Source: a virus
Lineage: Duplodnaviria; Heunggongvirae; Uroviricota; Caudoviricetes
DNA: 64,000 nt
Strand: one strand, 5' to 3'
Virus record (IMG/VR): IMGVR_UViG_3300031993_006620
Shown here: positions 11,205-51,247 of the stretch, in pieces
How positions within the stretch are numbered: the stretch's first letter is position 1
How the letters are laid out: the number at the start of each line of letters is the position of its first letter
Program-made: the position numbers and the translations under genes
The notes under the pieces: generated by a model
The model's input: the letters and a program-made list of their open reading frames with translations, nothing else
Databases searched by the model: none
Told to the model about the DNA's origin: nothing

Positions 11205-11346
11205 GACATTGACGATGTGCTGGAACCGTTCCGGCGAGAAAAAAGAGGCCAGCCGCCTTAGCGCAAGTTCCCAAACAACGAAATGGGTAACTGCGCGTCT
11301 GCCGCGTGCTGAACGGTGGTGCTACCGGCGGCTGGCGTGAGTTTCG

Positions 11347-11701
11347 TGGAGGTGGCGGGAGTCGAACCCGCGTCCAAAAACACTTACCCGCTTGCTACTA
11401 CACGCGTTTCCTCTGGATTTGAAATTTCGCAGGATCATACGCCCTAGAGGCCGGCGCGTGAACCCGCAAGCACCGATGGATCTCGGGGACGGCCTCGGTA
11501 CCGGACTTGTCCCCTACCCCGCATTGCGGCCCGGAGTCACCCCCAGCGGAGAAGGGGGCGGTCCAGGGGTTGCCTTAAATTAGGCAGCCATTGCTACAGG
11601 TGCAGCATTTATTTTTTACAGACTTTTTAACGAGTGCCCACGTCTGTGACCTCGGCGTGCAACTTGCGTATCGGCGTCCCTGTCGAAACCAGGTCACCCC
11701 C
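11347..11701 (-). ncRNA. ssrA: tmRNA (SsrA), about 355 nt
   Basis: 5' end GGGGGTGACCTGGTTTCGACAGGG and 3' end GGACGCGGGTTCGACTCCCGCCACCTCCA match E. coli tmRNA closely. An internal tag ORF ends ...GCAATGGCTGCCTAA (candidate tag AAPVAMAA); CCA is not encoded. Confidence 0.85.
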
Positions 11702-19949: not shown

Positions 19950-21345
19950 AGTTGACGACAAAATTATAAAATTTTTTCGCGTCAACTACCCACGCCCTAA
20001 AGGGCGTGAGCTTGTACGGCTCCCGTTGTTACCGCAGGGAGGCTTATGTACGATTGGGCGGTTGACATACACCCTGCCTTCCAAGTTCTCAATGCACCAT
20101 CAAGGGGCGTCTTGAACGAGGAAGGATGTTTGCTCTTCCGAGCTATATTGATTGCGGCATTCCAGTCGGCATCCAGGACAGTACCGTTCTTGCAATAGAA
20201 TCTACGATTCTTGCGAGTACCTTCCTTCTTGCCGGTGGTGCAATCTGTTTGGCTTGTCATGAACGGAGAAACCGTTTCCACTGTCTTACCGTACAGCGGT
20301 GCCTTGTATGACAAGATTTGCTTGAACTTGTAGAATGGAATTTGGTACATCCTACGATTATGGGATTTCCGTTTGAATCCCTCTTTAGACTTTGAAGTCT
20401 TCTGCTTAATTCCGCTTAAATCTTCCATTACGATAATGGAAGCCGCTGTGCTTTGAATTACCGCATTGGCAATCTTTCTGCACATATCGGTAGACTGGTT
20501 ATGTTCCTTGATGGATAGCTTACGAAAATGCCTATGAGCTGACTTGGTTCCTTTCTTCTGCAAGCATCGTTTCAAGTAACGTAGTTTGCGTTTACGCTTG
20601 TTATATTCCTTGTCATGGAACATGATGCCATCGGAGGAAATTGCGAAACGGCGTTCGCCCATATCCAATCCGATGCAGTTGTCATCATATAGAGGTACAT
20701 CGGGAACATTGAATGTTATCGAAAGGAAGAAACGCCCATTTCGCATGAAAATCAACGGGTCGGCGGTGGTATATTGCACAAACAGCGACTCCAGCCTGTC
20801 ATAGCCGACAATATCCGCTACGGCTCTTTTGCAAGCCTTGCCGGAGCACAATGCAATGCTCTTGCGATTGAACTTGGAATACAGCCGCTTGTCCAGCCTC
20901 ATTGATAGACCATGCTTTTCTGGTATTTTGTGCTTCTTATGACCGTTGCTCTTGATGGAACGAAATGCCGATATACATTCCTTGTATATTTTGATTACGG
21001 CTTGGCTTGGAATTGTTGGATATTCTTCTCGGAGAATATCATACACGGCTTTATGGACTGAACGCAAGTCTATATGGACATTGTTGGAATCTAATATGTT
21101 AGCACACTTGTTATAGGCTTCCCTGGACAATGCAAGAAGACTAGACCAGTATTCGTGGTCTTCCTTGGTACGGAACCGTATCTCTGCATTGTAGGTCAGT
21201 TCTACCATATAACTTTCACCCGTGTTCACCTATAAGTTTAGATAATTTCGGTTTGCAAAGCAAGTATTTTAGGCACAATATTGGAATAAATTGTTCCCAA
21301 AGTGTTCTCGTGGGCATTCCTATGCCGCCCTAAAGGGACGGCATC
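19950..21345 (-). mobile_element. IS200/IS605-family (IS1341-like) element carrying only tnpB
   Basis: Lower GC than flanks. Subterminal hairpins CACGCCCTAAAGGGCGTG at 19991-20008 and GCCGCCCTAAAGGGACGGC at 21324-21343, plus palindrome AGTTGACG..CGTCAACT at 19950-19987. Inserted between two motif-bearing genes. Confidence 0.6.
19997..21229 (-). CDS. tnpB: TnpB (IS605 OrfB-family RuvC-like RNA-guided nuclease), 410 aa
   Basis: RuvC-I CIGLDMGE, RuvC-II IVMEDL, Zn-finger Cys pairs, and RuvC-III CKNGTVLDADWNAAINIARK. Confidence 0.8.
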   Translation of the reverse strand: MNTGESYMVELTYNAEIRFRTKEDHEYWSSLLALSREAYNKCANILDSNNVHIDLRSVHKAVYDILREEYPTIPSQAVIKIYKECISAFRSIKSNGHKKHKIPEKHGLSMRLDKRLYSKFNRKSIALCSGKACKRAVADIVGYDRLESLFVQYTTADPLIFMRNGRFFLSITFNVPDVPLYDDNCIGLDMGERRFAISSDGIMFHDKEYNKRKRKLRYLKRCLQKKGTKSAHRHFRKLSIKEHNQSTDMCRKIANAVIQSTAASIIVMEDLSGIKQKTSKSKEGFKRKSHNRRMYQIPFYKFKQILSYKAPLYGKTVETVSPFMTSQTDCTTGKKEGTRKNRRFYCKNGTVLDADWNAAINIARKSKHPSSFKTPLDGALRTWKAGCMSTAQSYISLPAVTTGAVQAHAL

Positions 21346-21388
21346 TTCCTACCCACTCTTTCCGTGAATGTGATGATCGCCGATGAAC

Positions 21389-24296: not shown

Positions 24297-24405
24297 TGTG
24301 AACCTCCTGAGATGGCTTGTTTGCACAGGTAGAATGGGTGGCCGGGGGAGCCCCGGACTCATTCGTTGGTGCTGGTGGCGTCTATAATCCGCGCCGTGGA
24401 AGTGA

Positions 24406-25412
24406 TTTCGAACCCCATGCGTATGGGGAGTATAATTATCGGCCAGTATTCGATGATCCGCTTTGTTTCAAACCCCATGCGTATGGGGAGTATTCGTCTT
24501 GTTGTGATTGAAGATGAACTGGACTATTTTCGATCCCCACACGTATGGGGAGTATATCAGCCTCACCACGAACCAACTGTACATGCGTATTTCGATCCCC
24601 ACACGTATGGGGAGTATATAAGCAATGACTGCCGGATGCCCTTATACAATTTCGATCCCCACACGTATGGGGAGTATCGACTTCTTAGACACGTCAGCAA
24701 GCTTCTTGGTTTCGATCCCCACACGTATGGGGAGTATCGTACCATTCTTCTTGACTAGGAACTCGTTCATGTTTCGATCCCCACACGTATGGGGAGTATA
24801 GCACAGGACTCGTGTCGCCTGCGGTGTAGTAGTTTCGATCCCCACACGTATGGGGAGTATAAATTAGCGGTGGGCAGCGAGCAGGCGTGCCGTTTCGATC
24901 CCCACACGTATGGGGAGTATATAAAGGTGCTTGCAGCAATAACATTAGCAGTTTTTCGATCCCCACACGTATGGGGAGTATCACCATTGTTTAGTTTTAC
25001 CTCTGCTCATAAAGTTTCGATCCCCACACGTATGGGGAGTATTCTTGCAACTTGCTCTCTATGGCGTGATCACTATTTCGATCCCCACACGTATGGGGAG
25101 TATCGCGAGGTCGCTGATTGCATCCTGCTTGGCGTTTTTCGATCCCCACACGTATGGGGAGTATAAGGGATGGGCCGGATGCCTTTTAGGGTGGCGTTTT
25201 CGATCCCCACACGTATGGGGAGTATCATCCAGAACAAGCCGACGGAGAAGCCGATTGTATTTCGATCCCCACACGTATGGGGAGTATTTACAATGTCGAC
25301 CAACGTCCCGACCTCAGTGCAGTTTCGATCCCCACACGTATGGGGAGTATTCCGAGCTGAAGGCTGTACGTCTTGCGCACGATATTTCGATCCCCACACG
25401 TATGGGGAGTAT
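24406..25412 (-). CRISPR. CRISPR array, 17 repeats of 28 nt with 16 spacers of 32-35 nt
   Basis: Plus-strand repeat TTTCGATCCCCACACGTATGGGGAGTAT; minus-strand read ATACTCCCCATACGTGTGGGGATCGAAA, containing a 5-bp stem. The two leader-distal repeats (24406, 24466) are degenerate. Confidence 0.95.
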
Positions 25413-25633
25413 CGAGGTTTTTTGCTAAAAAACGGCAATTTCGGGGATAATTCCGTGTTTAGAATCTTTTACAATTGAAAAAGTTACTTTATTTTTCAGC
25501 AAAAGTTCTTGCAAATATGAAACAATAGAGCTGTTGGCCATTGTTGCATAAACTCCGTTTGAAATTTTTGCTGTATAGTGCTGTAAAGCCCCAGACAGTT
25601 TTGGTGGTATCGAATGTTGAATTACAAAAATTG
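25413..25633 (-). promoter_or_regulatory. AT-rich CRISPR leader between cas1 and the first repeat
   Basis: About 220 bp and strongly AT-rich against a 60% GC background. Adjacent to the conserved (youngest) end of the array. Confidence 0.5.
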
Positions 25634-26464
25634 TCATAACCGTTTTTGAAATAGTTCAGTCAACAAATTGGTAAAGTTAGCGGTTACGTTAACATCACTA
25701 AGCCGCCTGGACAAGTCTGCCAGCAATTCACTTAGGTCGACTTCGTTATGCGTAGATACATAATTCATCGCTACTGGAATCGAAGTAGAAGTCTTTATTG
25801 TATCGGCAATATCATATGATAATGGGGTTGCTCCCGACCCGTGGATGATACCAAACTGCGGTAGATACCCCATTCCAGAGATACACGCGGTTGCGATTCC
25901 ATATAAAGCCATGTTGCATATGGTAATCGCGAAATTCATTTTATCGTCTGGGTCCATCTTTGAAGTCTGCGGGACACGACCATTCCATTTCAGTCCATAT
26001 TGCTTAGCGATCGCCTCGTATTGACGTTTCATGAAATTGGCTTCGAGCAAAAGCAACTCTTTTACATTGTCCGTGTCTTTGTAAGAAATCGACCGAACAA
26101 ATAAAAGTTTTTTCCATAGCGATATCCGATGATTCATAGTTCGATCAATTTGGGTTTTTGCATTTGCCATACTGCTGTTTGCGTTCAACCCAACCGTGTA
26201 CATACTCATACCACGCTTGCCGCACCATAATACCGTTGTGCCACAGTCTGACAGCATCTTAATTGCGTCTCGACTAATGCTTGTTCCAGCACCCAACAAT
26301 AGACAGGTATATGCAGATGGGCATAAACTGTTTCGGCTCGGCGTTGGTTTAGTGGTTGACACAATCAAATTGTTGTCTTTAACGTATAAAGCCGATTTTT
26401 CAATATACTGAAATCCTAGTCTGGATTCCATCCGCACAAGCGGAATGTTGTCTACATTTAGCAT
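25634..26464 (-). CDS. cas1: Cas1 integrase (276 aa), type I-E/I-F-like
   Basis: Strong similarity to E. coli Cas1 in the blocks YEAIAKQYGLKWNGR and LYGIATACISGMGYLPQFGIIHGSGATPLSYDIADTIK, including the catalytic E/H/D positions. Confidence 0.85.
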   Translation of the reverse strand: MLNVDNIPLVRMESRLGFQYIEKSALYVKDNNLIVSTTKPTPSRNSLCPSAYTCLLLGAGTSISRDAIKMLSDCGTTVLWCGKRGMSMYTVGLNANSSMANAKTQIDRTMNHRISLWKKLLFVRSISYKDTDNVKELLLLEANFMKRQYEAIAKQYGLKWNGRVPQTSKMDPDDKMNFAITICNMALYGIATACISGMGYLPQFGIIHGSGATPLSYDIADTIKTSTSIPVAMNYVSTHNEVDLSELLADLSRRLSDVNVTANFTNLLTELFQKRL

Positions 26465-27000: not shown

Positions 27001-27074
27001 ATTAACCTCGCTGTGCGCTGTATGGATGATTGGATAAGGGAAACCCGGCCGACATTGTGTCAGTCGGGATTCTG

Positions 27075-28061
27075 TTATTCGAACGGTACAGGAAGCGTCT
27101 CGTTGTGTTCGTCCCAGTTGCAGACCGTCTCGCGCCAATTCGCAAAGTCGGTCTTACCGTCTTTATCAGCCGGATAGAGAGAACCACCATCAAGAAGGGT
27201 CGCCATTTCCGGTCCGGCGAGAAGCATTTCTGCTTCCTCGGCGGTAACTTGAAGGAAAATCATACCGCTTGCAATCCAAGTGCGTTCCGGGGTTCCGTGT
27301 ACGGAAACCGGAGCACCCCAGCTTTTCAGTTCGGCATATCTGCCCCACGTTTCGCCACGGAAGATGGATCCGCTGACCACACCTCGAACCACCGGGTCGA
27401 CCAAGTCGCGTTCGGTCACGGTTACATTCGGTATATCGGCAAAGAAGTCAAGCACGTCTTTGTTTCCGTTCTTATACTGTTCGCGGAGTTCGGTCAGGGT
27501 TTCGAGTACATTCAATCGGTACTTGTAGTTGCTGCCGATGACTTTGGCGCACATCTGGTCGAACATATTGTATGTTTCGTAACCCCAGACTGTCGGAAGC
27601 GTATCGTGGCTCGGACAAGCTCGGATCAGCTCGTGGGCAACTCCGTCGATGACTAGCTTGGCAGATGTCTTCTGTTGCTTTACAGAAAGATCTGTGCTGT
27701 TCATACTATACATCGACAGTTTTGCCGTCTGCATAATGCTTTGGTTATCGGGAACCGTGTCAATACGGACGCGAGCGCGTTTGGCGATATCGACATATTT
27801 CGCGAAACCATCGTAATCGGCGAGCGGGGAATGCTTGCGCTTGGTGGGAATCGGACGGTCGCCGCAGAGTACCGCGATTGCGTTAGCTACGCAGTGCAGC
27901 GGCAACGTGTCATCCGGACATACGGTGCGGTCGTTTTCGGAAGCCGCACGGAAGCCACCAAATTCAAACATTGTGTGTTCGCCTTGCAAAAGATTTCCCT
28001 TTGCCGTAGTGTGGATGAAACGCTTGGTACTGTCAAATTTCAACGCAATCTGGTACATCAT
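27075..28061 (-). CDS. candidate Cascade subunit (328 aa), Cas5-like by synteny only
   Basis: Located between cas7-like and cas6. Size matches Cas5f/Cas5fv; no sequence motif recognised. Confidence 0.35.
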   Translation of the reverse strand: MMYQIALKFDSTKRFIHTTAKGNLLQGEHTMFEFGGFRAASENDRTVCPDDTLPLHCVANAIAVLCGDRPIPTKRKHSPLADYDGFAKYVDIAKRARVRIDTVPDNQSIMQTAKLSMYSMNSTDLSVKQQKTSAKLVIDGVAHELIRACPSHDTLPTVWGYETYNMFDQMCAKVIGSNYKYRLNVLETLTELREQYKNGNKDVLDFFADIPNVTVTERDLVDPVVRGVVSGSIFRGETWGRYAELKSWGAPVSVHGTPERTWIASGMIFLQVTAEEAEMLLAGPEMATLLDGGSLYPADKDGKTDFANWRETVCNWDEHNETLPVPFE

Positions 28062-28072
28062 TGGTCAACTCC

Positions 28073-29086
28073 TTACTTGGTTTCTTCGGTGTCGCTGGAC
28101 TTCTTTCCCTTCTTTCCCTTCTTGGGTTCCTTGGGATGCAAGAGGTCGCGGACTTTCTGTTCGGCTTCGAGAGCAGCTTCCATACTGGTTTCGTCATACT
28201 GAAGCGCAACAGAAATTTTTTCGGCAAGCTGACCATTGACGATGTCAACGTCCTTACGCGTACCATCGTCCAAGGTAACGGTTGCCTTCATCGTTTCAAA
28301 TTCGACGTATTCGGTCGCGTTGTGAATGTCGATTTTTTGGATCTGACCTATCAAGTAGTTGACAAACTTGTTCACTGTGTCGTCGTCAAACTGATAGCAG
28401 ATTTCCGGCTGAACGCTGTTCTTCTTGCAGAGTGCAACTTTCTTGAACACGAACCCGTTTTCGGAAAGTTTCTGTTCGAATAGCGGTTGAAGGTCGGGAC
28501 GAACGCAGGGACGATCCAGCGTGTCGCTGCAAGCGAGAACGGAAAGTTCGGAGAGGTCAAGGCGTGCGGTAAAGGTGAAGTGAGACTTTCCGAGCGATTC
28601 CTTAACGAAGAACGATGTGTCGGACCTGGGGCCAGAGCTGCTGTGGGTTTCGAGCTGGGAAACCGCATCGTTGTCGAGTTCAGCGTCGGAGACGGTCAGC
28701 GGACTCTTTCGTTTCGTGGTGATGTCGGCCTTGGACGGATTCAAGTATCCGCGAATCAATCCAACATAGCTCGCGTTTTCGGCAATGAGAGAAGTAATGT
28801 CTTCCTTGGTCGCCGGGTTGTTTACTATGTCGAAAATGGCGTGGCGAATGCAGTCGCCGCTCGTCTTGATGACACGACCGCGGCCATCTTTGTAGCCGTT
28901 GGCCTTCATAAACGTGATGTTGTCGTTGAGAGCCATCGGCAAGAAAGCTCCGCCTTCGTTCTTGGCAAGTTCGTTTTTAGCCTTGACGTGCTGGTTATAG
29001 AGGTACTTGCCGTCCTTGCCTTCCTTGTTCGGACTGCCGAATCCGGCAAGGGTGACGATGAATTCGATTTTCTTCGCTTTCTGCAT
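28073..29086 (-). CDS. candidate Cascade backbone subunit (337 aa), Cas7-like by synteny only
   Basis: Immediately downstream of cas3. N-terminal G-rich segment (TLAGFGSPNKEGKDGK). Motif variant GGGGGAACCCCGG lies upstream. Confidence 0.35.
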   Translation of the reverse strand: MQKAKKIEFIVTLAGFGSPNKEGKDGKYLYNQHVKAKNELAKNEGGAFLPMALNDNITFMKANGYKDGRGRVIKTSGDCIRHAIFDIVNNPATKEDITSLIAENASYVGLIRGYLNPSKADITTKRKSPLTVSDAELDNDAVSQLETHSSSGPRSDTSFFVKESLGKSHFTFTARLDLSELSVLACSDTLDRPCVRPDLQPLFEQKLSENGFVFKKVALCKKNSVQPEICYQFDDDTVNKFVNYLIGQIQKIDIHNATEYVEFETMKATVTLDDGTRKDVDIVNGQLAEKISVALQYDETSMEAALEAEQKVRDLLHPKEPKKGKKGKKSSDTEETK

Positions 29087-29155
29087 AATGGATTCCTTTG
29101 GTTAAATTGTTGTGTTGTTGCACCTTATCGATGCCAAGGTTGGGGGAACCCCGGT

Positions 29156-31495
29156 CTATTTCTGGTCGGTCGGTTCAATCTCGTACCATCCATATTCATG
29201 GTCGTAGGCCATATCGGAAGGTCTAACCACGAACGGATAGTCTGGGTTGCGCCACATCGCTGGGTGTGTCCCGTAGAACTGACATTTGCGTTCTTGGGCC
29301 TTGCCGCCTTTCCCTTCCAAATACTTGTGAAGAACTGGAAAGTGTTCAGCAAAAGTTGAGTCGCTACGAACATACCTAAGCAGTTCGTTTCCCGACTTGA
29401 TATACGGTCTGAACGATGGTTTCGCCTTGAATGTCGTAAAGTCGGTATAGGATTCGCCAATCTGGAACGGACCGCAGTACACGCCGTCAGTGTCCTTTAC
29501 GACGAAGCTAATCGACGGGTCGATATTGCGGAGCGAACCGATATTTCCCTTGTTTTTGATGGACTTGCGCATAAAGGCTGGACGGTGCGGATAGCACTGC
29601 TTGACAAGCTCTTCCAAACCCTTCTTGTACAAGGTTTCTTGATACTTATTAAGCAAGTCGATATGTTCGGCGTTGAACGAGTCGAGCATCGCGTAAATGT
29701 CGCTCAAGGTCATCTTTTCCTTGACGTGAGACTTGATATAGTTCGTCCACGCCTTGTAGATGTCGTGAGTGACCTCGAAATCGTTGTGGTCGAGATAGAC
29801 TCGGTTTGCCTGTGACAAGTTAGATGGAATGACGAACACGATGGTCGCGTCTTGCACCTCACCCCAACGGTCACACCGACCGATGATCTGGATGTCGCCG
29901 TTAGGGGTACTTACCATAAATTCGATTTGGCGGAACGAAATGTCAAGGCTCGCTTTCATAATCGGTCCGGACGCAACACCTACCTTGTCGGCGGTCGCAC
30001 CCTTTCCGTACATCGAGTAAATCTTGTCCATTTTCGCCTTCTTGTCCTCGTCGGTGAACTTGCTGTGGAAGCAGATTGCGCCTTCGACGGACTTCGCTGC
30101 TTCCTGAGCGTCTGCAACTACGTTGAACACCTGAGCAGAGCCGTTCTCCAGCTTACCGAAATCTTCCTTTACCATAACATTGTACGGAACATTGTGCTGC
30201 GGCTGATAATGGGCGTTTCTTTTCGGAAGGTAGTTGACCCTCTCGTTGTCGCGGAAGAATTTCTCGTTATAGATGGTAATTGGAGTGGCAGAGACGAGCA
30301 GAGACTTCGCCTTGGTGAAGTTGTTGCGGAGCTGCAAGAGAATACAATAGGCCGCGTACATCGGGCAATTATCCATTGAGAACTCGTGGAACTCGTCGAA
30401 CACCATCGGAGCGGACATCATAACGTACTGCATATTGGCTTGTCTGTTGCTCGCGTACGGCTTTGTGATTGCGTCCAAATTCGTGACGATAATGTGCGGA
30501 CACGTCCCATCGTCCTCACGGTTGCTTCCCTTGATTTCGCCCGTATACATCTTTTCGATGCACACATCAAGGCCAAGCACTTCGTTGAGCTGAACGAGTC
30601 CGATGTACACGGATTCAATGACGGGGTTTCTTGGGCATACCCAATAAACCGTCTTGCGACACTTCAATGCCCAAGCCATACCGACGAGCGTCTTGCCGAA
30701 CCCAGCCGGGGCGGCGACCACATTGGTCGGTTTGTCGGCCAGGTTGACAATATCCATCTGTTGCGCGAAGCGTTCGGCATTGAAATTGTCCGGCTTGCGG
30801 ATTGTTTCGATGTTAAAACGGTCTTCGTTAAAGGAGTCGGCGTAACCGCTCACTTCTCGGTCGGCTCGGATAACCACTGCGCGAACGAACATCGTGAGAA
30901 CATTGTCGTCATACTTGGTCGGTTCGATTGCGAATAAGTTAGGCGCGACGAAGCTCTGCACGTCCCTTTCAGGAAATTCCATTCCGACAAGGTCGGAAAC
31001 GAAATCCGCGATGGCCTTAATGTCGAACTGGTCGCCGTAGAATATCTTCTGGCTGTAGTTCAGTTCGCCGTAGTCAGGCGCAGCGGCGTGATGCCAAAAC
31101 ACAGCCGACTTTACCGATTCATAGCACTTTCGGTCGGTTATGCCGAACTTTTCGCAAAGTTCAGGGCCATATACACAAAGGAAAGCCCAACTGAACTCGT
31201 TGTGGTATCGAGTAGCGTCGTCGGTGACTGCGTCCACCAATTCATCCGGTTCGGCGGACGCATCTTCGTTTTTCTTGATGTAGTCTTGAAAATACGGGAC
31301 TGACTTACCGATATCGTGAAGCAAACCGGCGACAAAGCAAGCCGTAATTACGGATTCCGTAGAATATTGCGGTCCGAACTGCTTCTTGAGTTCTGCACCC
31401 GAAAGAAGACTGGTCGCGATTTCCTTGGCTCGTAATGCGACCGTATTGCTGTGGTCTTTAAGGGTTACGCCGTTGTGCTTTGCGAGAATGGTCAT
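29156..31495 (-). CDS. cas3: Cas3 HD-nuclease/SF2-helicase (779 aa), not fused to Cas2
   Basis: N-terminal HD motifs (LLHDIGK, FWHHAAAPD). Walker A AAPAGFGKT and DExH-like DEFHEF. Confidence 0.85.
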   Translation of the reverse strand: MTILAKHNGVTLKDHSNTVALRAKEIATSLLSGAELKKQFGPQYSTESVITACFVAGLLHDIGKSVPYFQDYIKKNEDASAEPDELVDAVTDDATRYHNEFSWAFLCVYGPELCEKFGITDRKCYESVKSAVFWHHAAAPDYGELNYSQKIFYGDQFDIKAIADFVSDLVGMEFPERDVQSFVAPNLFAIEPTKYDDNVLTMFVRAVVIRADREVSGYADSFNEDRFNIETIRKPDNFNAERFAQQMDIVNLADKPTNVVAAPAGFGKTLVGMAWALKCRKTVYWVCPRNPVIESVYIGLVQLNEVLGLDVCIEKMYTGEIKGSNREDDGTCPHIIVTNLDAITKPYASNRQANMQYVMMSAPMVFDEFHEFSMDNCPMYAAYCILLQLRNNFTKAKSLLVSATPITIYNEKFFRDNERVNYLPKRNAHYQPQHNVPYNVMVKEDFGKLENGSAQVFNVVADAQEAAKSVEGAICFHSKFTDEDKKAKMDKIYSMYGKGATADKVGVASGPIMKASLDISFRQIEFMVSTPNGDIQIIGRCDRWGEVQDATIVFVIPSNLSQANRVYLDHNDFEVTHDIYKAWTNYIKSHVKEKMTLSDIYAMLDSFNAEHIDLLNKYQETLYKKGLEELVKQCYPHRPAFMRKSIKNKGNIGSLRNIDPSISFVVKDTDGVYCGPFQIGESYTDFTTFKAKPSFRPYIKSGNELLRYVRSDSTFAEHFPVLHKYLEGKGGKAQERKCQFYGTHPAMWRNPDYPFVVRPSDMAYDHEYGWYEIEPTDQK

Positions 31496-31515
31496 TGTGC
31501 TGATTCCTTAGCTGA

Positions 31516-31541
31516 TTGTTATATGGCTAATATAGCAACAA
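31516..31541 (-). promoter_or_regulatory. imperfect palindrome TTGTTATATGGCTAATATAGCAACAA upstream of cas3 (candidate operator)
   Basis: Dyad TTGTT..ATAT / ATAT..AACAA between the motif copy at 31544 and the cas3 RBS. Confidence 0.3.
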
Positions 31542-31582
31542 AAGGGAGCCCCGGACTCAAAGCTGGTCAAGGTGGGGCGTTT

Positions 31583-39844: not shown

Positions 39845-39997
39845 AGGCGGTGGTTTCCTTTCGGAGTTGAGGTGGATGCCGTCCGGCGGCACCGATGAGA
39901 TATGCTGGAGGGGGAGGCCCGGTGGGATGTAGGGAGTGTGGGGAGGGGAAGGGGCAAAAGAAAGGCGGGACTTCGATCCCGCGAGTTGTGAACTACT

Positions 39998-40015
39998 CAC
40001 AGCCTAAAGGGTGTG
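39998..40015 (-). repeat. orphan IS200/IS605-type end hairpin CACAGCCTAAAGGGTGTG
   Basis: Near-identical to the TnpB-element end hairpin at 19991-20008. Followed by two TTGTCAAAAAGTCG..AAATTTGAC inverted-repeat units at 40031-40100. Confidence 0.35.
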
Positions 40016-40243
40016 AGCTTGCGACCGCCTATTTGTCAAAAAGTCGAAAAATTTGACAAGGTATATATGTTTGTCAAAAAGTCGGGAAATTTGACCCGTT
40101 GTGTAGAAATGGGAAAAGCCGGGGCTCCCGAAGGAGTCCCGGCCGGCCAGTCGCTGTCAAAACATCCCGGCGACGGAGAGGTAGTCGATGAACCGTCGCC
40201 GGGTCCGGAAGGGAACGGCTGGCCCTAGCCCCGTCCGGAGGAG

Positions 40244-44296: not shown

Positions 44297-44354
44297 GTGC
44301 AGGCTCCTTGAGGTTGATGCAGGTGAGATGGGCTCCCGGAGGAGCCCCGGACGG

Positions 44355-44690
44355 TTATTCCGCCTTCTCGATGACCCACGTGGCCTTGACCGGCCAGCCG
44401 TCGGGCGTCGTCGCGCCTTTCTTCTGCATCACCTCTTTCATGGATATCAGATCGGCGTTGCCCGCCTGCTTGGCGTAGGCGTTGTATTCGCTGGTCACGA
44501 CCTTGCAGGCGGAATAGTACGAGCGGCGGGCGGTCCCGAAGGGGACGACGTTGCCGTTCTGTTCGACCCGTGCGCCGTGGACGAGCCACAGCTGCGACGG
44601 GCGTTCCTTGCGCTGTTCTGTCTTATTCGCGCCGAAACCCGAGTCGAAAGCATTGACCGTAGCGGCGATAGTGTTGAGTTTCTTGGGCAT
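44355..44690 (-). CDS. hypothetical protein (111 aa)
   Basis: GGAGTAACAC RBS. Confidence 0.5.
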   Translation of the reverse strand: MPKKLNTIAATVNAFDSGFGANKTEQRKERPSQLWLVHGARVEQNGNVVPFGTARRSYYSACKVVTSEYNAYAKQAGNADLISMKEVMQKKGATTPDGWPVKATWVIEKAE

Positions 44691-44699
44691 GTGTTACTC

Positions 44700-44867
44700 C
44701 TAGATATTCCGGATGAAGTCGTCGACCGTCGTGCCAGCCTTGAACGCTTTGTCGATTTCGTCGCTGTGGACGGCGATAAACCACGTTATCTCGTCCGAAT
44801 CGTATCCGGCCTTCCATAGCCACCGGTCGATTTGCTGTAAGAAGTCGTTGATGTCTTTTGTTGCCAT
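44700..44867 (-). CDS. small hypothetical protein (55 aa)
   Basis: ATG directly after a motif copy, sequence MATKDINDFLQQIDRWLWKAGYD... Shorter than 60 aa, so absent from the ORF track. Confidence 0.35.
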   Translation of the reverse strand: MATKDINDFLQQIDRWLWKAGYDSDEITWFIAVHSDEIDKAFKAGTTVDDFIRNI

Positions 44868-44939
44868 GCTGGTCTCCTGGTGCAGGATCGATCGGTGCTC
44901 AGGGGAGCCCCGGCCGGATATGGGGCAGGCGTCTGGCTC

Positions 44940-45527
44940 CTAGAAGAGGTAAAAGTCAATTTTTCGGAGCATGCCCTTATTCTCGTGGAGGTGCTTGAGG
45001 TTCTCATCCGTCAAGGCCTTGTTCTTCAGCCACCGTTCGCCCCTGCGGGTCAGCATCGAAACTTTGTATGAGCTGGACCCGTCGTGGTGGGTGTGGGTGG
45101 TGTGAAGGCCGTCCTCGTCGATGTAGATGTCGATACGGTCGGGGTCGCTGCCTGCGAAGGCGCGGATGAAGCCGTCGAGGTTCTCGATCACCTTGCTCAC
45201 CCCAACGCTGCCGTGGGACGGGCGGAAGTCGGGGTAGAACGAGCGGTAGCCGCCTTCGAAGAGAAGGACGCGGCCGACAAGCGGTCCGTGCTGGAAATTG
45301 TCCTTGAGGTCTTCCCAGTTTTGCCGATCGTCGTCGTTCACTCGGTCCCGGTATTCCTTGGTCCCCTCCTCGGGACAAGGATCGTCCGCGTCGTGGCATT
45401 CTTCCCAGTTCTGCTTGAACTGTTCGTAGTTCACGGGGTCGGACGATGCGTAGACCACCTTCTTGTCGCCCTTGAACGTGTCGAAGTGTATCTTTTCGAA
45501 GTGGGGTCGTTTCGTTGTGGTTGCCAT
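44940..45527 (-). CDS. hypothetical protein (195 aa)
   Basis: Motif copy upstream. Confidence 0.55.
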   Translation of the reverse strand: MATTTKRPHFEKIHFDTFKGDKKVVYASSDPVNYEQFKQNWEECHDADDPCPEEGTKEYRDRVNDDDRQNWEDLKDNFQHGPLVGRVLLFEGGYRSFYPDFRPSHGSVGVSKVIENLDGFIRAFAGSDPDRIDIYIDEDGLHTTHTHHDGSSSYKVSMLTRRGERWLKNKALTDENLKHLHENKGMLRKIDFYLF

Positions 45528-45598
45528 AAGCGGGTCTCCTTTCGTTTACGTACAGCTAATACCCGGGCCGGGGAGCCCCGGTCTCGTTCCGTTAAGGA

Positions 45599-45684
45599 GA
45601 ACCGGGGACACGCGCCTGCATTGTCGGATGTTGAGGTAAAATGTGTGGCGCTGGGCGGGAGGGAAACCCGCCTGTCCCCGGTTC
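45599..45684 (-). ncRNA. candidate structured RNA element (about 86 nt)
   Basis: Perfect 12-bp long-range inverted repeat GAACCGGGGACA/TGTCCCCGGTTC enclosing two internal hairpins (CGCGCC..GGCGC and GCGGG-AGGGAAA-CCCGC). Intergenic, between gene 45693 and motif copy 45563. Confidence 0.3.
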
Positions 45685-45692
45685 AGGGAATG

Positions 45693-46217
45693 TTATTCCG
45701 GCATACGGTAGTTGTTCTCGTCGAGGTAGCTGCGCTCCGGTGCGCAGTAGCTGTCGAAAATTTCTCTGGCTCGGCGTTCCGCCTCGGCGTTGTTGTTGTT
45801 GTTGTTGTTGTAGAGATCAGTTTTCAGGCGGGCGAGTGCCTCGACGTACTTCATGATCTTGTCGAAATCCGTGTTCGCCGAATACCAGGTTGGCCGGTCG
45901 TTGATTTCATAGGGATATAGCGACATGTACGAACGTTTTTTGTATCCGTACACGCCGAGGGCGGCCTCCTTTTCGACGAGATCCACTTCCAGTATTGTCC
46001 CGATGCAATGCTTTTTGTCCGAACTGTACAGGACGAAGTAAATTTCCTGTCGAAAGTCGTCGATTTCTTTGTTTTGGTGGCGTTCAAGCTTGATACGGTA
46101 GCGGATGTCCTTGGGCAGAGCTGCAAGCGCTCGCTCTGCGGTGATCTGCCGCATGTGCTCGAGGTTCGCCTCTCGTACCAGATGGGGATCCACCTCGATA
46201 GGCTTGATTAGGGGCAT
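45693..46217 (-). CDS. hypothetical protein (174 aa) containing an N6 tract
   Basis: GGAGGACAGGC RBS; the (GTT)6 microsatellite at about 45788-45806 encodes NNNNNN. Confidence 0.55.
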   Translation of the reverse strand: MPLIKPIEVDPHLVREANLEHMRQITAERALAALPKDIRYRIKLERHQNKEIDDFRQEIYFVLYSSDKKHCIGTILEVDLVEKEAALGVYGYKKRSYMSLYPYEINDRPTWYSANTDFDKIMKYVEALARLKTDLYNNNNNNNAEAERRAREIFDSYCAPERSYLDENNYRMPE

Positions 46218-46233
46218 GCCTGTCCTCCTGTGG

Positions 46234-46491
46234 CTATTCCGCGCTCACGGCGCAGCTGTCGAGGGGGATGTAGATCGAGTCCACCTCGTGCAAGGCGACC
46301 GTGATGGGGGCGATCTCGTAGCCGCTGGGCTTCTTGCCTGCGTCCTTTTCGACGCGGAACTCCACGCCGTGTTCGTGCGGGACGAACTTGACGACGTCGT
46401 CGGCAGTCCTGACTTTGACGCGGCCTCGGGGTTCGATATAGAAGCAGAGCTCCTTCTTTTCCTTAACGGCGGTTTCGATGAAACTGAGCAT
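46234..46491 (-). CDS. hypothetical protein (85 aa)
   Basis: Motif copy upstream. Confidence 0.5.
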   Translation of the reverse strand: MLSFIETAVKEKKELCFYIEPRGRVKVRTADDVVKFVPHEHGVEFRVEKDAGKKPSGYEIAPITVALHEVDSIYIPLDSCAVSAE

Positions 46492-46528
46492 GTTTGACTC
46501 CTTTGGTTGACGCAGGCCCGATCTAGGC

Positions 46529-46957
46529 TCAGGGGAGCCCCGGACCGGATATGGCAGTGACCGACGTGCCGAGACGGCGCCTCGCGTCGGCGTTCACCTG
46601 CTCGGCGACGCTGAACGCGGTGGCGACCTCGTTGACGTAGGCGACGGCTGCCCGGATTTCCGTCGGCGATGCCACGGGCAGCTTGAACGTGACCTCCTTG
46701 CCGTTGTCCCCCTTCATGGGGCAGGGCTGCAGGGCGGTCTGGTCGATCGACCAGCGCTTGCACGTGGCCACCGGCGCCCCGCCATTTCCGGAGACGGTGA
46801 GTACGGCGACCTTGCGGGACACGCCGTCGGGCGTCCGGTACACGACGTAGAGCGTAGACTCCCCGCGTTCGACCCTGGGCCTGGTGCGGGCGTTGAGCTT
46901 GAAGTAGATACGCTGGGCGGCTTCCTGCCGCGACATGGACTGGCTGTCTTGTTTCAT
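46529..46957 (-). CDS. hypothetical protein (142 aa)
   Basis: Start MKQDSQS; the C-terminus reads through a motif copy. Confidence 0.5.
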   Translation of the reverse strand: MKQDSQSMSRQEAAQRIYFKLNARTRPRVERGESTLYVVYRTPDGVSRKVAVLTVSGNGGAPVATCKRWSIDQTALQPCPMKGDNGKEVTFKLPVASPTEIRAAVAYVNEVATAFSVAEQVNADARRRLGTSVTAISGPGLP

Positions 46958-46968
46958 GGTGCCCCCGT

Positions 46969-47148
46969 TCACCAGGAGAACGTGGCCCCGTCGAACGAGA
47001 ACGTGCCGTCGGAGTTGTCGGCGACGAGCCGTGCTGCGTCCGCGTGGGATTCCGGCACGGCGAAGGATGACCCCTCGTCCCTGCGGACGGTCAGGGCCAC
47101 CTTCGTCAGGATGTCCACCCGCCTGGTGTCGATGTTGGATTCTTTCAT
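46969..47148 (-). CDS. small hypothetical protein (59 aa)
   Basis: Start MKESNID lies downstream of an AT-rich extended -10-like TGcTTATATT; possibly leaderless. This is the C-terminal part of the ORF-track entry 46969-47508. Confidence 0.3.
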   Translation of the reverse strand: MKESNIDTRRVDILTKVALTVRRDEGSSFAVPESHADAARLVADNSDGTFSFDGATFSW

Positions 47149-47207
47149 TTCCCGTATAATATAAGCAAAAAATATGTTTTCGGCTCGTAAATAATTGTTA
47201 ACCGGGC

Positions 47208-47432
47208 CTACGACGTCCAGGTAGGTCGTCGAGGGAAGCTCTCCAGCGGCTCCGCCGACCGGTCCCATTCGCCGGTGAGCACTTGGCACATGGTCTTGGT
47301 CTCGAGCACGCACTTGGTCACCTCCTTGCTGTCGACGGGACGACCTTCCGCGTACTTGTCCGCGAGCTCGCGGAGCTTGTCGCTTATTTCGTAGAGTTTT
47401 TTCTTGATTTCGAACTTTGTGTAGTTTGCCAT
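47208..47432 (-). CDS. hypothetical protein (74 aa)
   Basis: AAAGGAG RBS. Confidence 0.5.
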   Translation of the reverse strand: MANYTKFEIKKKLYEISDKLRELADKYAEGRPVDSKEVTKCVLETKTMCQVLTGEWDRSAEPLESFPRRPTWTS

Positions 47433-47441
47433 TTGGCTCCT

Positions 47442-48041
47442 TTAGGCGATGAATTCCTTTTCGCTGAGGAAGACGACCGACGGGATGATCTGGTACGTAT
47501 CGACGCAACCGGCATTGACGATCCGGACACGTTCTTTGATCTCCGACGGGTTCACTTTCTTGTTCGCGAGGCCGGTCAGGCCGAGCTTGTTCACGAAGTC
47601 GGCGATCGCCTTGGCCGCTTTCTTGCGCGTCGGTGCGCCGAGTACGATCGGCACGGCGTAGGTCGGCGTGAGGCGGAATGCATTGTAGGAGATCGCGGCG
47701 TCGCCGGTGAACAGGCTATCCAGCTTCTTGTAATACTTCTCGACGAGGTCGTAGGCCTTCTTGTAACCCTCCTTCTCGACGTTTTCGCGGAGATGGCCGA
47801 GCGCCTTGTAGGCGCAAATCTGCGCCGTCGCGCCGAACTGGATCCTGAAGGCCGTCTTCACGACCTTGTGGTTGATCGCCACGTATGCCTTGGCCACATA
47901 CTTGCCCTTGGCCTTGATGTCTGCGCCGCTGACCTCGTGGGCTTTGCTGCGATGCCTGACGACAATGCCGACCTTTCCCTTGAACTCGTCGTTCACCTTG
48001 ATGATAGCCATCATGATCTTGTCGAATGTTCTTGAATCCAT
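47442..48041 (-). CDS. hypothetical basic protein (199 aa)
   Basis: Motif copy upstream. Confidence 0.55.
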   Translation of the reverse strand: MDSRTFDKIMMAIIKVNDEFKGKVGIVVRHRSKAHEVSGADIKAKGKYVAKAYVAINHKVVKTAFRIQFGATAQICAYKALGHLRENVEKEGYKKAYDLVEKYYKKLDSLFTGDAAISYNAFRLTPTYAVPIVLGAPTRKKAAKAIADFVNKLGLTGLANKKVNPSEIKERVRIVNAGCVDTYQIIPSVVFLSEKEFIA

Positions 48042-48093
48042 GTTTGACTCCTTTGCTTTGTACAGGCCGGATGGGCTCCCGGAGGAGCCCCGG

Positions 48094-48441
48094 TCAGGCT
48101 TCCGTGAACTTGCTCCTGTCCACCGTGTACACGGGGTAGGTGCAGAAGCCGGACTTGACGGACCGGCCCGGTACCGGCGCGATCAGGCCTTCGGCGACCA
48201 TCTTCTCCACGAGGGGTTTCTGCATGTTGTTCTCGTCGAGGAGGAACTCGGTGTCCTTCTTGTCCTCGTCGATCGATCCCTGAATATTCACGGCGACGCT
48301 GCAGAAGGGTTCGCCGGACGGGGTGACCCCTTCGATGGCGACGCCGCCGCCTTGTACGTACTTTGTAAGAAGGAAGAAGACGGTCTCCCTCTCGCCCCAT
48401 GTGGCGTCGAATGTGATGCGCTTGCTTTGCGGACAGTTCAT
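48094..48441 (-). CDS. hypothetical protein (115 aa)
   Basis: Start MNCPQSK after a GGAGATAACT RBS. Confidence 0.5.
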   Translation of the reverse strand: MNCPQSKRITFDATWGERETVFFLLTKYVQGGGVAIEGVTPSGEPFCSVAVNIQGSIDEDKKDTEFLLDENNMQKPLVEKMVAEGLIAPVPGRSVKSGFCTYPVYTVDRSKFTEA

Positions 48442-48443
48442 AG

Positions 48444-48782
48444 TTATCTCCATGTGTGTATGGTGTACGTGTTACCGTTGATGAAGCTTACGAAAGGTTC
48501 CCCCGAGTCGGACTTTTCGTCGGACAGCTCGCCGGCCGCCCAGCGGCTCACCAGCTCCCGTGCGGACTTGGCCGCCTCGTAGGGGGTGTCGCAGGAAACG
48601 TCGACGACAACGACCCGATTCGCCTGCGTTTCGACGATCAGTGGCAAATCGTACCGCTTCCCGTCGGTTTCGACACATGCGAAGTCCTGGGTGCCTTCAC
48701 CGGAGGTGAGCAGTTCGTCGAGCTCGCAGGGGTCGTCGATCTCGGACGCCAGTATTACGGTCTGGTTGTTGGGCGTTATCAT
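48444..48782 (-). CDS. hypothetical acidic protein (112 aa)
   Basis: Motif copy upstream. Confidence 0.5.
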   Translation of the reverse strand: MITPNNQTVILASEIDDPCELDELLTSGEGTQDFACVETDGKRYDLPLIVETQANRVVVVDVSCDTPYEAAKSARELVSRWAAGELSDEKSDSGEPFVSFINGNTYTIHTWR

Positions 48783-48863
48783 GTAGTCTCCTTGTTCGAT
48801 GCAGGGCAGATGGGGCCCCGGAGGAGCCCCGGACAGGTTCAGATGCCTGCCTAGCCCATTCTG

Positions 48864-49493: not shown

Positions 49494-49527
49494 TTTCGAT
49501 CTCCTTTGTTAGTTGGTACAGGAATGA

Positions 49528-50990: not shown

Positions 50991-51040
50991 GCGGTCTCCT
51001 TGTTGGTACAGGGATTATTACCGGTCGGGGGAGACCCGGC

Positions 51041-51154: not shown

Positions 51155-51247
51155 GGAGAGCAAAACTTTTCCCGACCGCGCCTAGGAATTATCGCCGGAC
51201 GGCCGACGCGGCCGGAAAAATGTACCAACCGCCGTCCGGGAAATTTT

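What the first reader, a model, noticed from the sequence alone, without database searches (positions are those of the whole stretch)
27038..31554. The backbone's hairpin motif occurs inside the lower-GC cas operon
Variant motif copies precede cas6 (about 27038, GGGAAACCCGG), the cas7-like gene (about 29142, GGGGGAACCCCGG) and cas3 (about 31544). There is none before cas1 or the 328-aa gene. The imported, lower-GC CRISPR-Cas module has therefore acquired the host element's gene-expression signal, which implies co-regulation with the surrounding genes and some evolutionary residence time.
Basis: seen in the sequence. Interest (0 to 1): 0.55.

Follow-up and report, generated by a model that had tools for sequence, protein, structure and literature searches.

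The report
Element-wide expression cassettes punctuate cas operon
Three copies of a roughly 55-base signal that sits before almost every gene of this uncultivated rumen mobile element also lie inside its CRISPR-Cas locus and split it into three units, but the cas genes most likely arrived recently with those signals already in place.

Summary
The minus strand carries 56 copies of one intergenic cassette: CCGGGGCTCC, a variable 11 nt that often pairs with it, an invariant AT at +21/+22, yTGTACCAAC, then Shine-Dalgarno and ATG. Three copies precede cas3, the cas7fv-like gene and cas6. No plus-strand position in the 64 kb scores as high as the weakest of them. The 328-aa gene and cas1 lack a copy because they are translationally coupled (11-nt gap, 7-nt overlap).

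Two of the three cas copies are not hairpins; only box, spacing and downstream box are kept.

In relatives, cas7 and, where the junction is visible, cas6 carry each element's own box variant. Cas modules in elements without the cassette lack it.

The "residence time" inference is not supported. The cas island has GC3 27-65% against 76% in the backbone. A relative with 96-97% identical flanking genes has no detectable Cas7 or close Cas3. Indels between the two relatives break inside cassettes. The module probably came recently from another cassette-using element.

The mechanism is not settled: promoter-type signal about 0.55, RNA-level intercistronic element about 0.3.

The parts
31496..31554 (-). 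Cassette copy upstream of cas3. It has a perfect box CCGGGGCTCC (31554-31545) and AT at offsets +21/+22 (31533-31532) inside TATATT. The downstream box is CATATAACAA, followed by SD AAGGAA. There is no hairpin. It lies at the upstream edge of the low-GC island.
   Evidence: MFE -2.6; 22.1 bits; TATATT at offsets 20-25
29156..31495 (-). cas3 (779 aa): HD nuclease plus DEAD/ResIII helicase plus Cas3 C-terminal domain. The best PADLOC model is Cas3fv.
29087..29154 (-). Cassette copy between cas3 and cas7. The box is CCGGGGTTCC (1 mismatch) with a moderate hairpin. The AT is displaced by +1 nt. GTGCAACAAC and SD AAAGGA follow.
   Evidence: MFE -9.2; 6.4 bits ungapped; conserved GGG..CC..AT in six relatives
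28073..29086 (-). cas7fv-like gene (337 aa).
   Evidence: Cas7fv 3.5e-13; PF28157; profile hits Cas7fv 5O6U, E 9e-17
27075..28061 (-). 328-aa gene in the Cas5fv/large-subunit position. It has no family or PDB hit. It lies 11 nt after cas7 and has no cassette (translationally coupled).
   Evidence: conserved next to cas7 in L007, L011 and L012 at 55-56% identity
27001..27048 (-). Cassette copy upstream of cas6. The box is CCGGGTTTCC (2 mismatches) with AT at +21/+22, then GCGCACAGC and SD GAGG. There is no hairpin. It is probably the entry point for the cas6-cas1-cas2-array unit.
   Evidence: MFE -2.8; 14.4 bits
26458..27000 (-). cas6 (180 aa), Cas6e-like.
   Evidence: (Cas6e 6.8e-8)
25634..26464 (-). 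cas1 (276 aa), Cas1e-like. It overlaps the end of cas6 by 7 nt and has no cassette. GC 42%.
   Evidence: (2.7e-48)
25425..25637 (-). Short cas2e-like ORF (70 aa). GC 33%. It overlaps the end of cas1.
   Evidence: weak, E about 1e-3; homologous ORF in L011
24406..25412 (-). CRISPR array of 17 repeats (ATACTCCCCATACGTGTGGGGATCGAAA, type I-E-like) and 16 spacers. It starts about 12 nt after the cas2 stop, so there is no separate leader promoter region. The last two repeats are degenerate.
24297..24356 (-). Full-strength backbone cassette (43.7 bits) immediately after the array. It marks the downstream edge of the low-GC island.

Best explanation
The three sites are true, somewhat degenerate members of an element-wide intergenic cassette. 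The cassette consists of:
- box1, CCGGGGCTCC;
- an 11-nt variable segment that usually pairs with box1;
- an invariant AT exactly 21 nt from the start of box1;
- yTGTACCAAC with a pyrimidine-purine step at +31/+32;
- a CA-rich leader, a Shine-Dalgarno sequence and the ATG.

The cassettes divide the cas locus into three expression units: [cas3], [cas7 plus the 328-aa gene] and [cas6-cas1-cas2-CRISPR array]. The genes without a cassette are translationally coupled to the gene ahead.

Most likely the cassette is an element-specific promoter-type signal (inferred). On this reading, box1 sits at about -32 to -23 and is read by a factor that co-evolves with it. AT sits at -11/-10 and initiation is at the TA of GTAC. 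The optional hairpin acts as a leaky terminator or 3' stabiliser for the upstream gene. In the cas copies the hairpin is largely absent, so read-through plus internal initiation is expected.

The cassettes in the cas locus were not created here after import (inferred). The cas sub-modules circulate among a group of cassette-using rumen elements with cassettes as their boundaries. The island entered this backbone recently, by recombination at cassettes, from a lower-GC member of that group.
For: Shown:
- There are 56 strand-specific intergenic copies and none on the other strand at the same score.
- Spacing is rigid: A21 is present in 95% and T22 in 94% of the 53 backbone copies, while offsets 12-20 vary.
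- The 3' end of the hairpin stem ranges from offset 12 to 20, yet the AT stays fixed relative to box1.
- The variable segment pairs with box1 beyond a composition-matched shuffle (empirical p <= 0.05) in 30 of 56 copies. Copies without a hairpin, including two cas copies, keep box, AT and box3.
- A Y31-R32 step is present in 45 of 56 copies, and the cas3 copy has TATATT at the predicted -10 position.
- Four canonical TTGACA-17-TATATT promoters exist separately, one of them before the tmRNA gene. The cassette is therefore a distinct class.
- Relatives keep the CGGGRCT-N13-AT architecture but with element-specific boxes. Their cas7 and cas6 (and cas3 in L007) carry the local variant.
- Elements without cassettes have cas modules without cassettes.
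- The low-GC island is bounded exactly by the cassettes at 31554 and 24356.
- The flanking genes occur at 96-97% identity on an NCBI-source contig of 78,703 bp. No Cas7 homologue, and no member of the Cas3 90% cluster, has an NCBI source.
- Five of six rearrangements between the window and that relative have their ends inside cassettes.
- The TnpB insertion (GC 45%) has no cassette.
Against: - There is no transcript evidence of any kind.
- Only AT is conserved in the putative -10. T at -7 occurs in 16 of 56 copies and at least 4/6 matches to TATAAT in 13 of 56. It is therefore not a normal sigma-70 promoter.
- No RNA polymerase, sigma factor or obvious regulator was found among 83 window proteins. 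Roughly 34 kb of the 98-kb contig was not examined.
- Fifty-six promoters in 53 kb is unusually dense.
- At 62663 a box1 hairpin plus AT is followed by a sigma-70-like promoter instead of box3. At 40142 a box1-like hairpin with a T-run ends the 41-64 kb gene block. The hairpin part therefore has a life of its own that fits RNA-level roles.
- Absence of cas from the close relative is inferred from database sources and not read from its sequence.
- The Cas7 tree is neighbour-joining without support values.
Confidence: 0.55

Rival explanations
1. The cassette is an RNA-level intercistronic element. A few sigma-70 promoters (for example near 62.6 kb and at 39456) would drive very long polycistronic transcripts. 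Each cassette would then act in the RNA. The hairpin would attenuate or terminate, or protect the 3' end of the upstream cistron after cleavage at the invariant AU. CUGUACCAACC plus the SD would form a standard unstructured translation leader. In the cas locus the hairpin-poor copies would serve mainly as leaders, keeping cas as one transcript.
For: - The 3' arm pairs with box1 in several different registers, which is what selection on a folded single strand looks like.
- Between close relatives, substitutions fall in the loop and 3' arm, and one hairpin was swapped for another of the same length.
- Several copies are followed by T-runs, and three were called terminator-like.
- A box1-like hairpin plus T-run closes the 41-64 kb block at 40142.
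- Only four strong sigma-70 promoters were seen.
- The CRISPR array abuts cas2, so it needs upstream transcription in any case.
Against: - The AT is fixed relative to box1 and not relative to the stem end, which varies by 8 nt. A stem-measuring nuclease does not explain this.
- In about a quarter to a half of copies the predicted hairpin is no more stable than a shuffle of the 3' arm, yet they keep box1, AT and box3.
- The terminator scan is not enriched over shuffles (19 against 23.1).
- Most tails after the stem are C-rich and not U-rich.
Confidence: 0.3
2. A cas module was imported from outside the cassette-using elements. During a long residence in this backbone it evolved the backbone's signal de novo at three junctions.
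For: - The cas copies match this backbone's variant (CT/TT followed directly by CCC, with no G as in L007 and L014).
- They are degenerate, as newly evolved sites might be.
- The cas island has lower GC.
Against: - The junction before cas7 carries a cassette in seven distinct elements (window, L017, L018, L013, L007, L014, L022). The junction before cas6 does so in the three where it is visible (window, L007, L014).
- Cas GC3 of 27-65% against 76% shows little amelioration, whereas L007 and L014 cas genes are fully ameliorated.
- A backbone with 96-97% identical flanks appears to lack cas.
Confidence: 0.12
3. The cas copies are chance GC-rich near-palindromes, or the motif is an intrinsic part of the cas operon unrelated to the backbone.
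For: The boxes are short (11-13 nt) and two of them deviate from the consensus.
Against: - Occurrence is 34 against 0.32 expected.
- The full 41-nt architecture, strand and intergenic placement all match.
- Fifty-three non-cas genes carry the cassette.
- Cas modules in cassette-free elements lack it.
Confidence: 0.02

Closest known systems
Phage-specific promoter classes repeated before many genes (T4 middle promoters with a MotA box at about -30 plus a -10; SPO1 gp28 or gp33/34 sigma promoters; T7/T3/SP6 promoter families). Cited from my own knowledge.
   Same: A conserved box lies at fixed spacing from a short -10-like element. It is used many times on the gene strand, is distinct from the host-type TTGACA/TATATT promoters in the same element, and has box variants that differ between related elements.
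   Different: The box sequence is unrelated. Only AT is conserved in the -10 region. The box doubles as the 5' arm of a hairpin. The density is about one per gene. No cognate factor or polymerase was identified.
Bacteriophage N4 virion-RNA-polymerase hairpin promoters (from my own knowledge)
   Same: A short GC-rich hairpin (5-8 bp stem, 3-5 nt loop) lies upstream of the genes it serves, with the invariant AT about 10-11 nt from the loop centre in the commonest class.
   Different: The hairpin register varies. In about a quarter to a half of copies, including two cas copies, the predicted hairpin is no better than a shuffle. The spacing is kept to the box and not to the loop. N4 has three such promoters, not fifty.
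Intercistronic stabiliser or processing hairpins (REP/BIME elements, T7 early RNase III sites) and mycobacteriophage cluster K start-associated sequences (from my own knowledge)
   Same: A repeated intergenic hairpin-containing element lies between co-directional genes, close to start codons.
   Different: The stems are far too short for RNase III. There is a sequence-conserved 5' arm with a free-register 3' arm. There is a fixed AT and a downstream box that those elements lack.
Type I-Fv (I-F2) CRISPR-Cas of Shewanella putrefaciens CN-32 (PMC4937334; PDB 5O6U) and the phage ICP1 type I-F system (PMC10161043)
   Same: It is a minimal effector built on a Cas7fv-type backbone protein without recognisable large or small subunits, plus Cas3. 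It is carried by a mobile element, as in ICP1.
   Different: Cas6, Cas1, Cas2 and the repeat are I-E-like. Cas3 is not fused to Cas2. The Cas5fv-position protein has no detectable similarity. The operon is split by element-specific cassettes.

Membership tests
Backbone intergenic cassette of this element | Box1 CCGGGGCTCC on the gene strand in an intergenic gap | tested here: met
   The cas3 copy has 0 mismatches, cas7 has 1 and cas6 has 2. All three are intergenic and on the minus strand.
Backbone intergenic cassette of this element | Invariant AT at offsets +21/+22 from the start of the box | tested here: met
   The cas3 and cas6 copies match exactly. The cas7 copy is at +22/+23. Its 93%-identical relative L017 has the canonical spacing.
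Backbone intergenic cassette of this element | Downstream yTGTACCAAC-type box, then SD and start codon 50-70 nt from the box | tested here: met
   The boxes are CATATAACAA, GTGCAACAAC and GCGCACAGC, followed by an SD. The whole-cassette matrix scores (22.1, 6.4 and 14.4 bits) exceed every plus-strand position in the window.
Backbone intergenic cassette of this element | Hairpin between box1 and the following 11 nt | tested here: not met
   MFE is -2.6 for the cas3 copy and -2.8 for the cas6 copy, no better than shuffles. The cas7 copy gives -9.2 (p 0.095). Only 30 of 56 copies overall are significant, so the hairpin is common but not defining.
Sigma-70 promoter | TTGACA-like -35 and TATAAT-like -10 at 16-18 bp | tested here: not met
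   The cassettes were not called by the consensus scan. T at -7 occurs in 16 of 56. Only the cas3 copy has a good -10 (TATATT).
Intrinsic terminator | GC-rich stem followed directly by a U-run | tested here: not met
   None of the three cas copies has the hairpin/U-run combination on the gene strand as a functional-looking unit. The scan is not enriched over shuffles. A minority of backbone copies do qualify.
N4-type hairpin promoter | Obligatory hairpin with fixed loop-to-start distance | tested here: not met
   The hairpin is absent or variable in register, while the AT stays fixed to box1.
Integron attC cassette array | IntI integrase, and attC sites of 57 nt or more with RYYYAAC/GTTRRRY cores | tested here: not met
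   No integrase was found among 83 proteins. The repeat hairpin is about 21 nt with no inverted core pair.
Type I-Fv (I-F2) CRISPR-Cas | Cas7fv backbone subunit | tested here: met
   PADLOC Cas7fv 3.5e-13, PF28157, profile against 5O6U at 9e-17.
Type I-Fv (I-F2) CRISPR-Cas | Cas5fv subunit | tested here: inconclusive
   The 328-aa protein is in the right position but has no family or PDB hit. Its structure was not predicted.
Type I-Fv (I-F2) CRISPR-Cas | Cas6f, a Cas2-Cas3 fusion and I-F-type Cas1 | tested here: not met
   Cas6 and Cas1 are best matched by I-E models. Cas3 starts with the HD domain and has no Cas2 part. A separate short Cas2e-like ORF is present.

The most novel reading that the evidence does not exclude
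The cassette may be a previously undescribed expression-and-exchange system of a group of very large uncultivated rumen elements. A box read by an element-encoded factor would co-evolve with it, giving different box variants in different elements. The same roughly 55-nt unit would serve as the homologous-recombination joint through which single genes and whole modules are swapped. Those modules would include the three CRISPR-Cas sub-modules, which would arrive already wired into the recipient's programme.
Probability: 0.3. Interest if true: 0.65.

Novelty: new variant of a known kind. Interest (0 to 1): 0.45.

Why it matters
Mobile-element-borne CRISPR-Cas systems are weapons in conflicts between elements, and when they are expressed is decisive. 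Here the cas genes and probably the CRISPR array (which has no leader promoter region of its own) are placed under the element's own gene-by-gene signal instead of a host-type promoter. The comparison also shows how such a module can move between elements without losing expression, because the signals sit at its joints and double as recombination sites. The cassette itself is a clean, testable candidate for a new promoter or intercistronic signal class. It has 56 copies, rigid geometry and element-specific variants, and it is absent from GenBank phages, from IMG/VR, from GTDB genomes and from the searchable literature.

Tried and rejected
- GenBank phages: no nucleotide similarity for the backbone or the cas region.
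- Exact cassette pattern: absent from IMG/VR and from GTDB genomes. The metagenome scan found only one contig, a close relative.
- Cas7 relatives: none in IMG/VR or GTDB.
- Rfam: only the tmRNA.
- A polymerase, sigma factor or regulator that could read the box: nothing recognisable in Pfam or PHROGs among 83 proteins.
- Literature searches for the motif strings and for comparable phage intergenic elements returned nothing relevant.
- The cassette resembles the CRISPR repeat (both contain CTCCCC and a G/C stem followed by AUC), which would suggest Cas6 processing. I rejected this because L007 has a different backbone box but a similar repeat, so the two do not co-vary.
- Integron attC array: rejected (no integrase, hairpin too short, no core sites).
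- Sigma-32-like -10 (CCCCATNT): present only in the subclass whose 3' arm ends in CCCC.
- Spacers: no match to the window or any fetched locus apart from the array itself.
- An empty-site relative could not be read directly.
Full report
**What is in the region.**
All genes between about 9.6 kb and 64 kb run on the minus strand. The region of the finding holds a compact CRISPR-Cas locus in this order:
- cas3, 31495-29156, 779 aa, with HD, DEAD/ResIII and Cas3 C-terminal domains; the best PADLOC model is Cas3fv;
- a cas7fv-like gene, 29086-28073; its profile hits the Shewanella Cas7fv structure 5O6U at E 9e-17;
- a 328-aa gene, 28061-27075, with no recognisable family, in the Cas5fv position;
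- a Cas6e-like gene, 27000-26458;
- a Cas1e-like gene, 26464-25634;
- a 70-aa Cas2e-like ORF, 25637-25425;
- an array of 17 I-E-like repeats, about 25412-24406, that starts roughly 12 nt after the cas2 stop.

These assignments rest. The window is part of a 98-kb rumen-type metagenome contig.

The three strings are at the stated coordinates. On the gene strand they read CCGGGGCTCCC (before cas3), CCGGGGTTCCCCC (before cas7) and CCGGGTTTCCC (before cas6).
- The degenerate pattern that covers all three occurs 34 times in the window against 0.32 expected, 33 of them on the minus strand.
- Allowing two mismatches to CCGGGGCTCCCC gives 58 minus-strand and 7 plus-strand hits. The plus-strand hits are mostly mirror images of palindromic copies.

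I aligned 53 non-cas copies on the box without gaps. This shows:
- CCGGGGCTCC at offsets 0-9;
- a variable stretch at offsets 12-20;
- A at +21 in 95% and T at +22 in 94% of copies;
- yTGTACCAAC at +29 to +37;
- then AAGGAG, with ATG at about +50 to +56.

A 41-position weight matrix built from these copies scores the cas copies 22.1 bits (cas3), 14.4 bits (cas6) and 6.4 bits (cas7). No plus-strand position in 64 kb reaches 6.4 bits. All 56 minus-strand positions that do are intergenic and precede a start codon. Shuffled cas sequence gives 0.016 such hits per 6.2 kb.

The cas7 copy scores low because its AT lies 1 nt further out. Its 93%-identical relative L017 has the canonical spacing.

The 328-aa gene and cas1 lack a copy because they have no intergenic space: an 11-nt gap and a 7-nt overlap.

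**"Hairpin" is only partly apt.**
I folded offsets -3 to +21 and shuffled only the variable 3' part.
- In 30 of 56 copies the pairing with the box exceeds what composition gives (empirical p <= 0.05).
- The pairing uses several different registers. The 3' end of the stem lies anywhere from offset 12 to 20, while the AT stays fixed relative to the box.
- A substantial minority of copies have essentially no hairpin. These include the cas3 copy (-2.6 kcal/mol) and the cas6 copy (-2.8). The cas7 copy is moderate (-9.2).
- Between the window and a 96-97% identical relative, substitutions concentrate in the loop and the 3' arm. One hairpin was exchanged for a different one of the same length.

So the constant features are box, spacing, AT and the downstream box. 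The hairpin is a frequent add-on.

**Other promoter classes in the element.**
Four near-consensus host-type promoters (TTGACA-17-TATATT) occur elsewhere: before the tmRNA gene (11798-11770), at 2526-2554 and 4108-4136 on the plus strand, and at 39456-39428. The cassette is therefore a separate signal class.

Within the cassette, the hexamer at offsets 20-25 resembles TATAAT (at least 4 of 6 matches) in only 13 of 56 copies, and T at the -7 position occurs in 16 of 56. The cas3 copy has TATATT. A pyrimidine-purine step at +31/+32 is present in 45 of 56 copies.

**Comparative evidence.**
Cas7 has 18 homologues, all from metagenomes. None is in IMG/VR or in GTDB genomes. I fetched their contexts.

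| Locus | Cas7 identity | What is seen |
|---|---|---|
| L007 (116-kb contig) | 56% | Own cassette GGCGGGGCTGGCCCCGCC-gTAT-N6-GTACAACCAAC before 15 genes on the gene strand, none on the other. Present before cas7, cas6 and cas3, absent before the Cas5-position gene. |
| L014 | 56% | Uses CCGGGACTGGCCC, present before cas7 and cas6. |
| L013 | 68% | A cassette before cas7. |
| L017 | 93% | A cassette before cas7. |
| L018 | 83% | A cassette before cas7. |
| L022 | 57% | A cassette before cas7. |
| L011 | 51% | Sparse cassettes in the backbone, none in cas. |
| L012, L021 | 51-53% | Bacteroidetes-type TAnnTTTG promoters, no cassette anywhere. |
| L016 | 33% | No cassette anywhere. |

In all cassette-bearing variants the distance from CGGGRCT to AT is 13 nt.

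A neighbour-joining Cas7 tree does not group the cassette-bearing modules together (no support values). Cassette presence therefore follows the host element and not the cas lineage.

Visible gene content shared between the window and L007 outside cas is minimal.

**Is the island imported, and when?**
- In the window, cas3, cas7, the 328-aa gene and cas6 have GC 50-52% (GC3 57-65%). cas1 has 42% (GC3 44%) and cas2 33% (GC3 27%). The 69 backbone genes average 57.5% (GC3 76%).
- The step occurs exactly at the cassettes at 31554 and 24356.
- In L007 and L014 the cas genes have the backbone's composition.
- The 90%-identity clusters of the two flanking genes (Band_7 and the 114-aa gene) each contain a member from an NCBI-source contig of 78,703 bp. 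That is the length of JAEEGH010001140.1. These members are 97% and 96% identical to the window proteins.
- The Cas3 cluster has no NCBI-source member, and none of the 18 Cas7 homologues has one.
- This is indirect evidence that a near-identical backbone lacks the island.

Comparing the window with the fetched pieces of that contig shows six rearrangements, and five of them have their ends within 0-3 nt of a cassette:
- loss of the gene at 56244-56654 between two cassettes;
- replacement of 53199-54789;
- a 950-bp insertion at cassette 49549;
- two block edges.

Cassettes cover only about 6% of the sequence.

The TnpB insertion (GC 45%) has no cassette.

**Interpretation.**
Shown:
- the three sites are members of the backbone cassette family;
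- they lie at the boundaries of three gene groups;
- those boundaries carry cassettes in every relative that uses cassettes and in which the boundary is visible;
- the box variant matches the local backbone.

Inferred:
- the cas sub-modules circulate among cassette-using elements with the cassettes as their joints;
- the island entered this backbone recently by recombination in cassettes.

The presence of the motif therefore says little about residence time in this particular element. The cas3 copy has a perfect box followed by AT-rich sequence. That fits a crossover inside the cassette, but this was not tested.

**Mechanism.**
I favour a promoter-type signal, at about 0.55. The reasons are:
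- the geometry is rigid relative to the box and not to the stem;
- hairpin-free copies keep every other feature;
- there is a Y-R step at the expected start;
- box variants are element-specific, as in phage polymerase or sigma promoter families;
- the cassette is distinct from the host-type promoters.

The hairpin would then serve the upstream gene as a leaky terminator or 3' stabiliser.

The main rival, at about 0.3, is an RNA-level intercistronic element in long transcripts from the few sigma-70 promoters. Four observations favour it:
- the 3' arm pairs in free register;
- some copies are followed by T-runs;
- a box-containing terminator lies at 40142;
- a box hairpin at 62663 is followed by a sigma-70-like promoter instead of box3.

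No polymerase, sigma factor or regulator was found in the window. No transcript data are available.

In either case the cas6 cassette is probably the entry point for cas6-cas1-cas2 and for the pre-crRNA, because the array has no room for its own promoter.

**Nature of the element.**
It is unknown.
- Most proteins are ORFans. Recognisable ones include FtsK/SpoIIIE-like, a C5 methylase, Band_7, HD domains, GP88, TnpB and a tmRNA.
- The relative also carries an ArdC-like protein.
- Contigs carrying close variants reach 475 kb.
- It may be a very large phage or a megaplasmid.

**Novelty and interest.**
The cas-internal copies are an ordinary consequence of a module living in, and moving between, elements with a gene-by-gene signal. 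The signal itself and its role as a recombination joint appear undescribed. I rate the finding as moderately interesting. It is a new variant of a known kind: element-specific expression signals driving a mobile-element-borne CRISPR-Cas system.

Noticed in passing
window 44341-57468 compared with L003-L005 (JAEEGH010001140.1): Five of six insertions, deletions or replacements between the window and a 96-97% identical relative have their ends inside cassettes. One example is the precise loss of gene 56244-56654 between cassettes 56704 and 56223. The cassettes act as recombination joints for single-gene exchange.
   Followed up: partly
window 11344-11701 (-), promoter 11798-11770: The element carries a full-length tmRNA gene (Rfam 163.9 bits, tag AAPVAMAA) with its own consensus TTGACA-17-TATATT promoter. 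A box1 hairpin plus T-run follows at 11204-11183.
   Followed up: partly
window 1305-2893 and 2887-4475 (+): There is a perfect (100%) tandem duplication of 1,589 bp at an offset of 1,582 bp. It carries two ORFs (234 and 127 aa) and a consensus sigma-70 promoter. It could be a real duplication or an assembly artefact.
   Followed up: partly
window about 19990-21360 (-): An IS605-type TnpB gene (410 aa, GC 45%) is inserted between cassette-bearing genes and has no cassette of its own. CCCTTTAGGG...GTAGTT end motifs flank it. A similar solitary end lies at about 40000-40030, and one occurs in L021.
   Followed up: partly
window 39960-40150 (-): This looks like a regulatory hub. A box1-like hairpin with a T-run (40142) ends the 41-64 kb gene block. 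It is followed by three copies of CGACTTTTTGACAAA, including an inverted TTGACAA/TTGTCAA pair, and by a second terminator-like hairpin at 39982-39965. The arrangement resembles an operator/promoter region.
   Followed up: no
window 25425-26464: cas1 (GC 42%, GC3 44%) and cas2 (GC 33%, GC3 27%) are much lower in GC than cas3, cas7 and cas6 (50-52%). No cassette separates them from cas6. Cas1 is 69% identical to that of L011, whereas the effector proteins are 38-55% identical. The adaptation genes may have a separate origin.
   Followed up: partly
window 25412-25425; L011, L014 and L007 array starts: In all relatives the CRISPR array begins 9-12 nt after the cas2 stop (or after a cas1 remnant), preceded by a conserved ATTTTACT-like string. 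There is no conventional leader.
   Followed up: no
L007 12767-14900: This relative has lost adaptation. Only about 170 nt of cas1 remain. A long array of about 30 repeats follows, many of them degenerate, and then a cassette and cas3.
   Followed up: no
window 51037-51093: A 20-nt tandem repeat (CGGACGTTCAAAAAATCTTA, 2.8 copies) lies directly upstream of and runs into cassette 51039.
   Followed up: no
window 41000-64000 compared with 11000-40000: Cassettes in the 41-64 kb block score 34-47 bits and have strong hairpins and CTGTACCAACC. Those in the 11-40 kb block score 12-34 bits and have looser downstream boxes. These may be two strength or timing classes. The cas copies fall at or below the low end of the weaker class.
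   Followed up: partly
L006 4428-5399 (-) (JAEEGH010001140.1, outside the window): An ArdC-like anti-restriction protein (ArdcN plus zincin peptidase) sits among cassette-preceded genes. Together with the FtsK/SpoIIIE-like gene this hints at a plasmid- or ICE-like lifestyle instead of, or in addition to, a phage one.
   Followed up: no
cluster table: Close variants of the cas3, cas7 and flanking proteins occur on contigs of up to 138,839, 221,175 and 474,914 bp, so the element (or its host replicon) may be very large.
   Followed up: no
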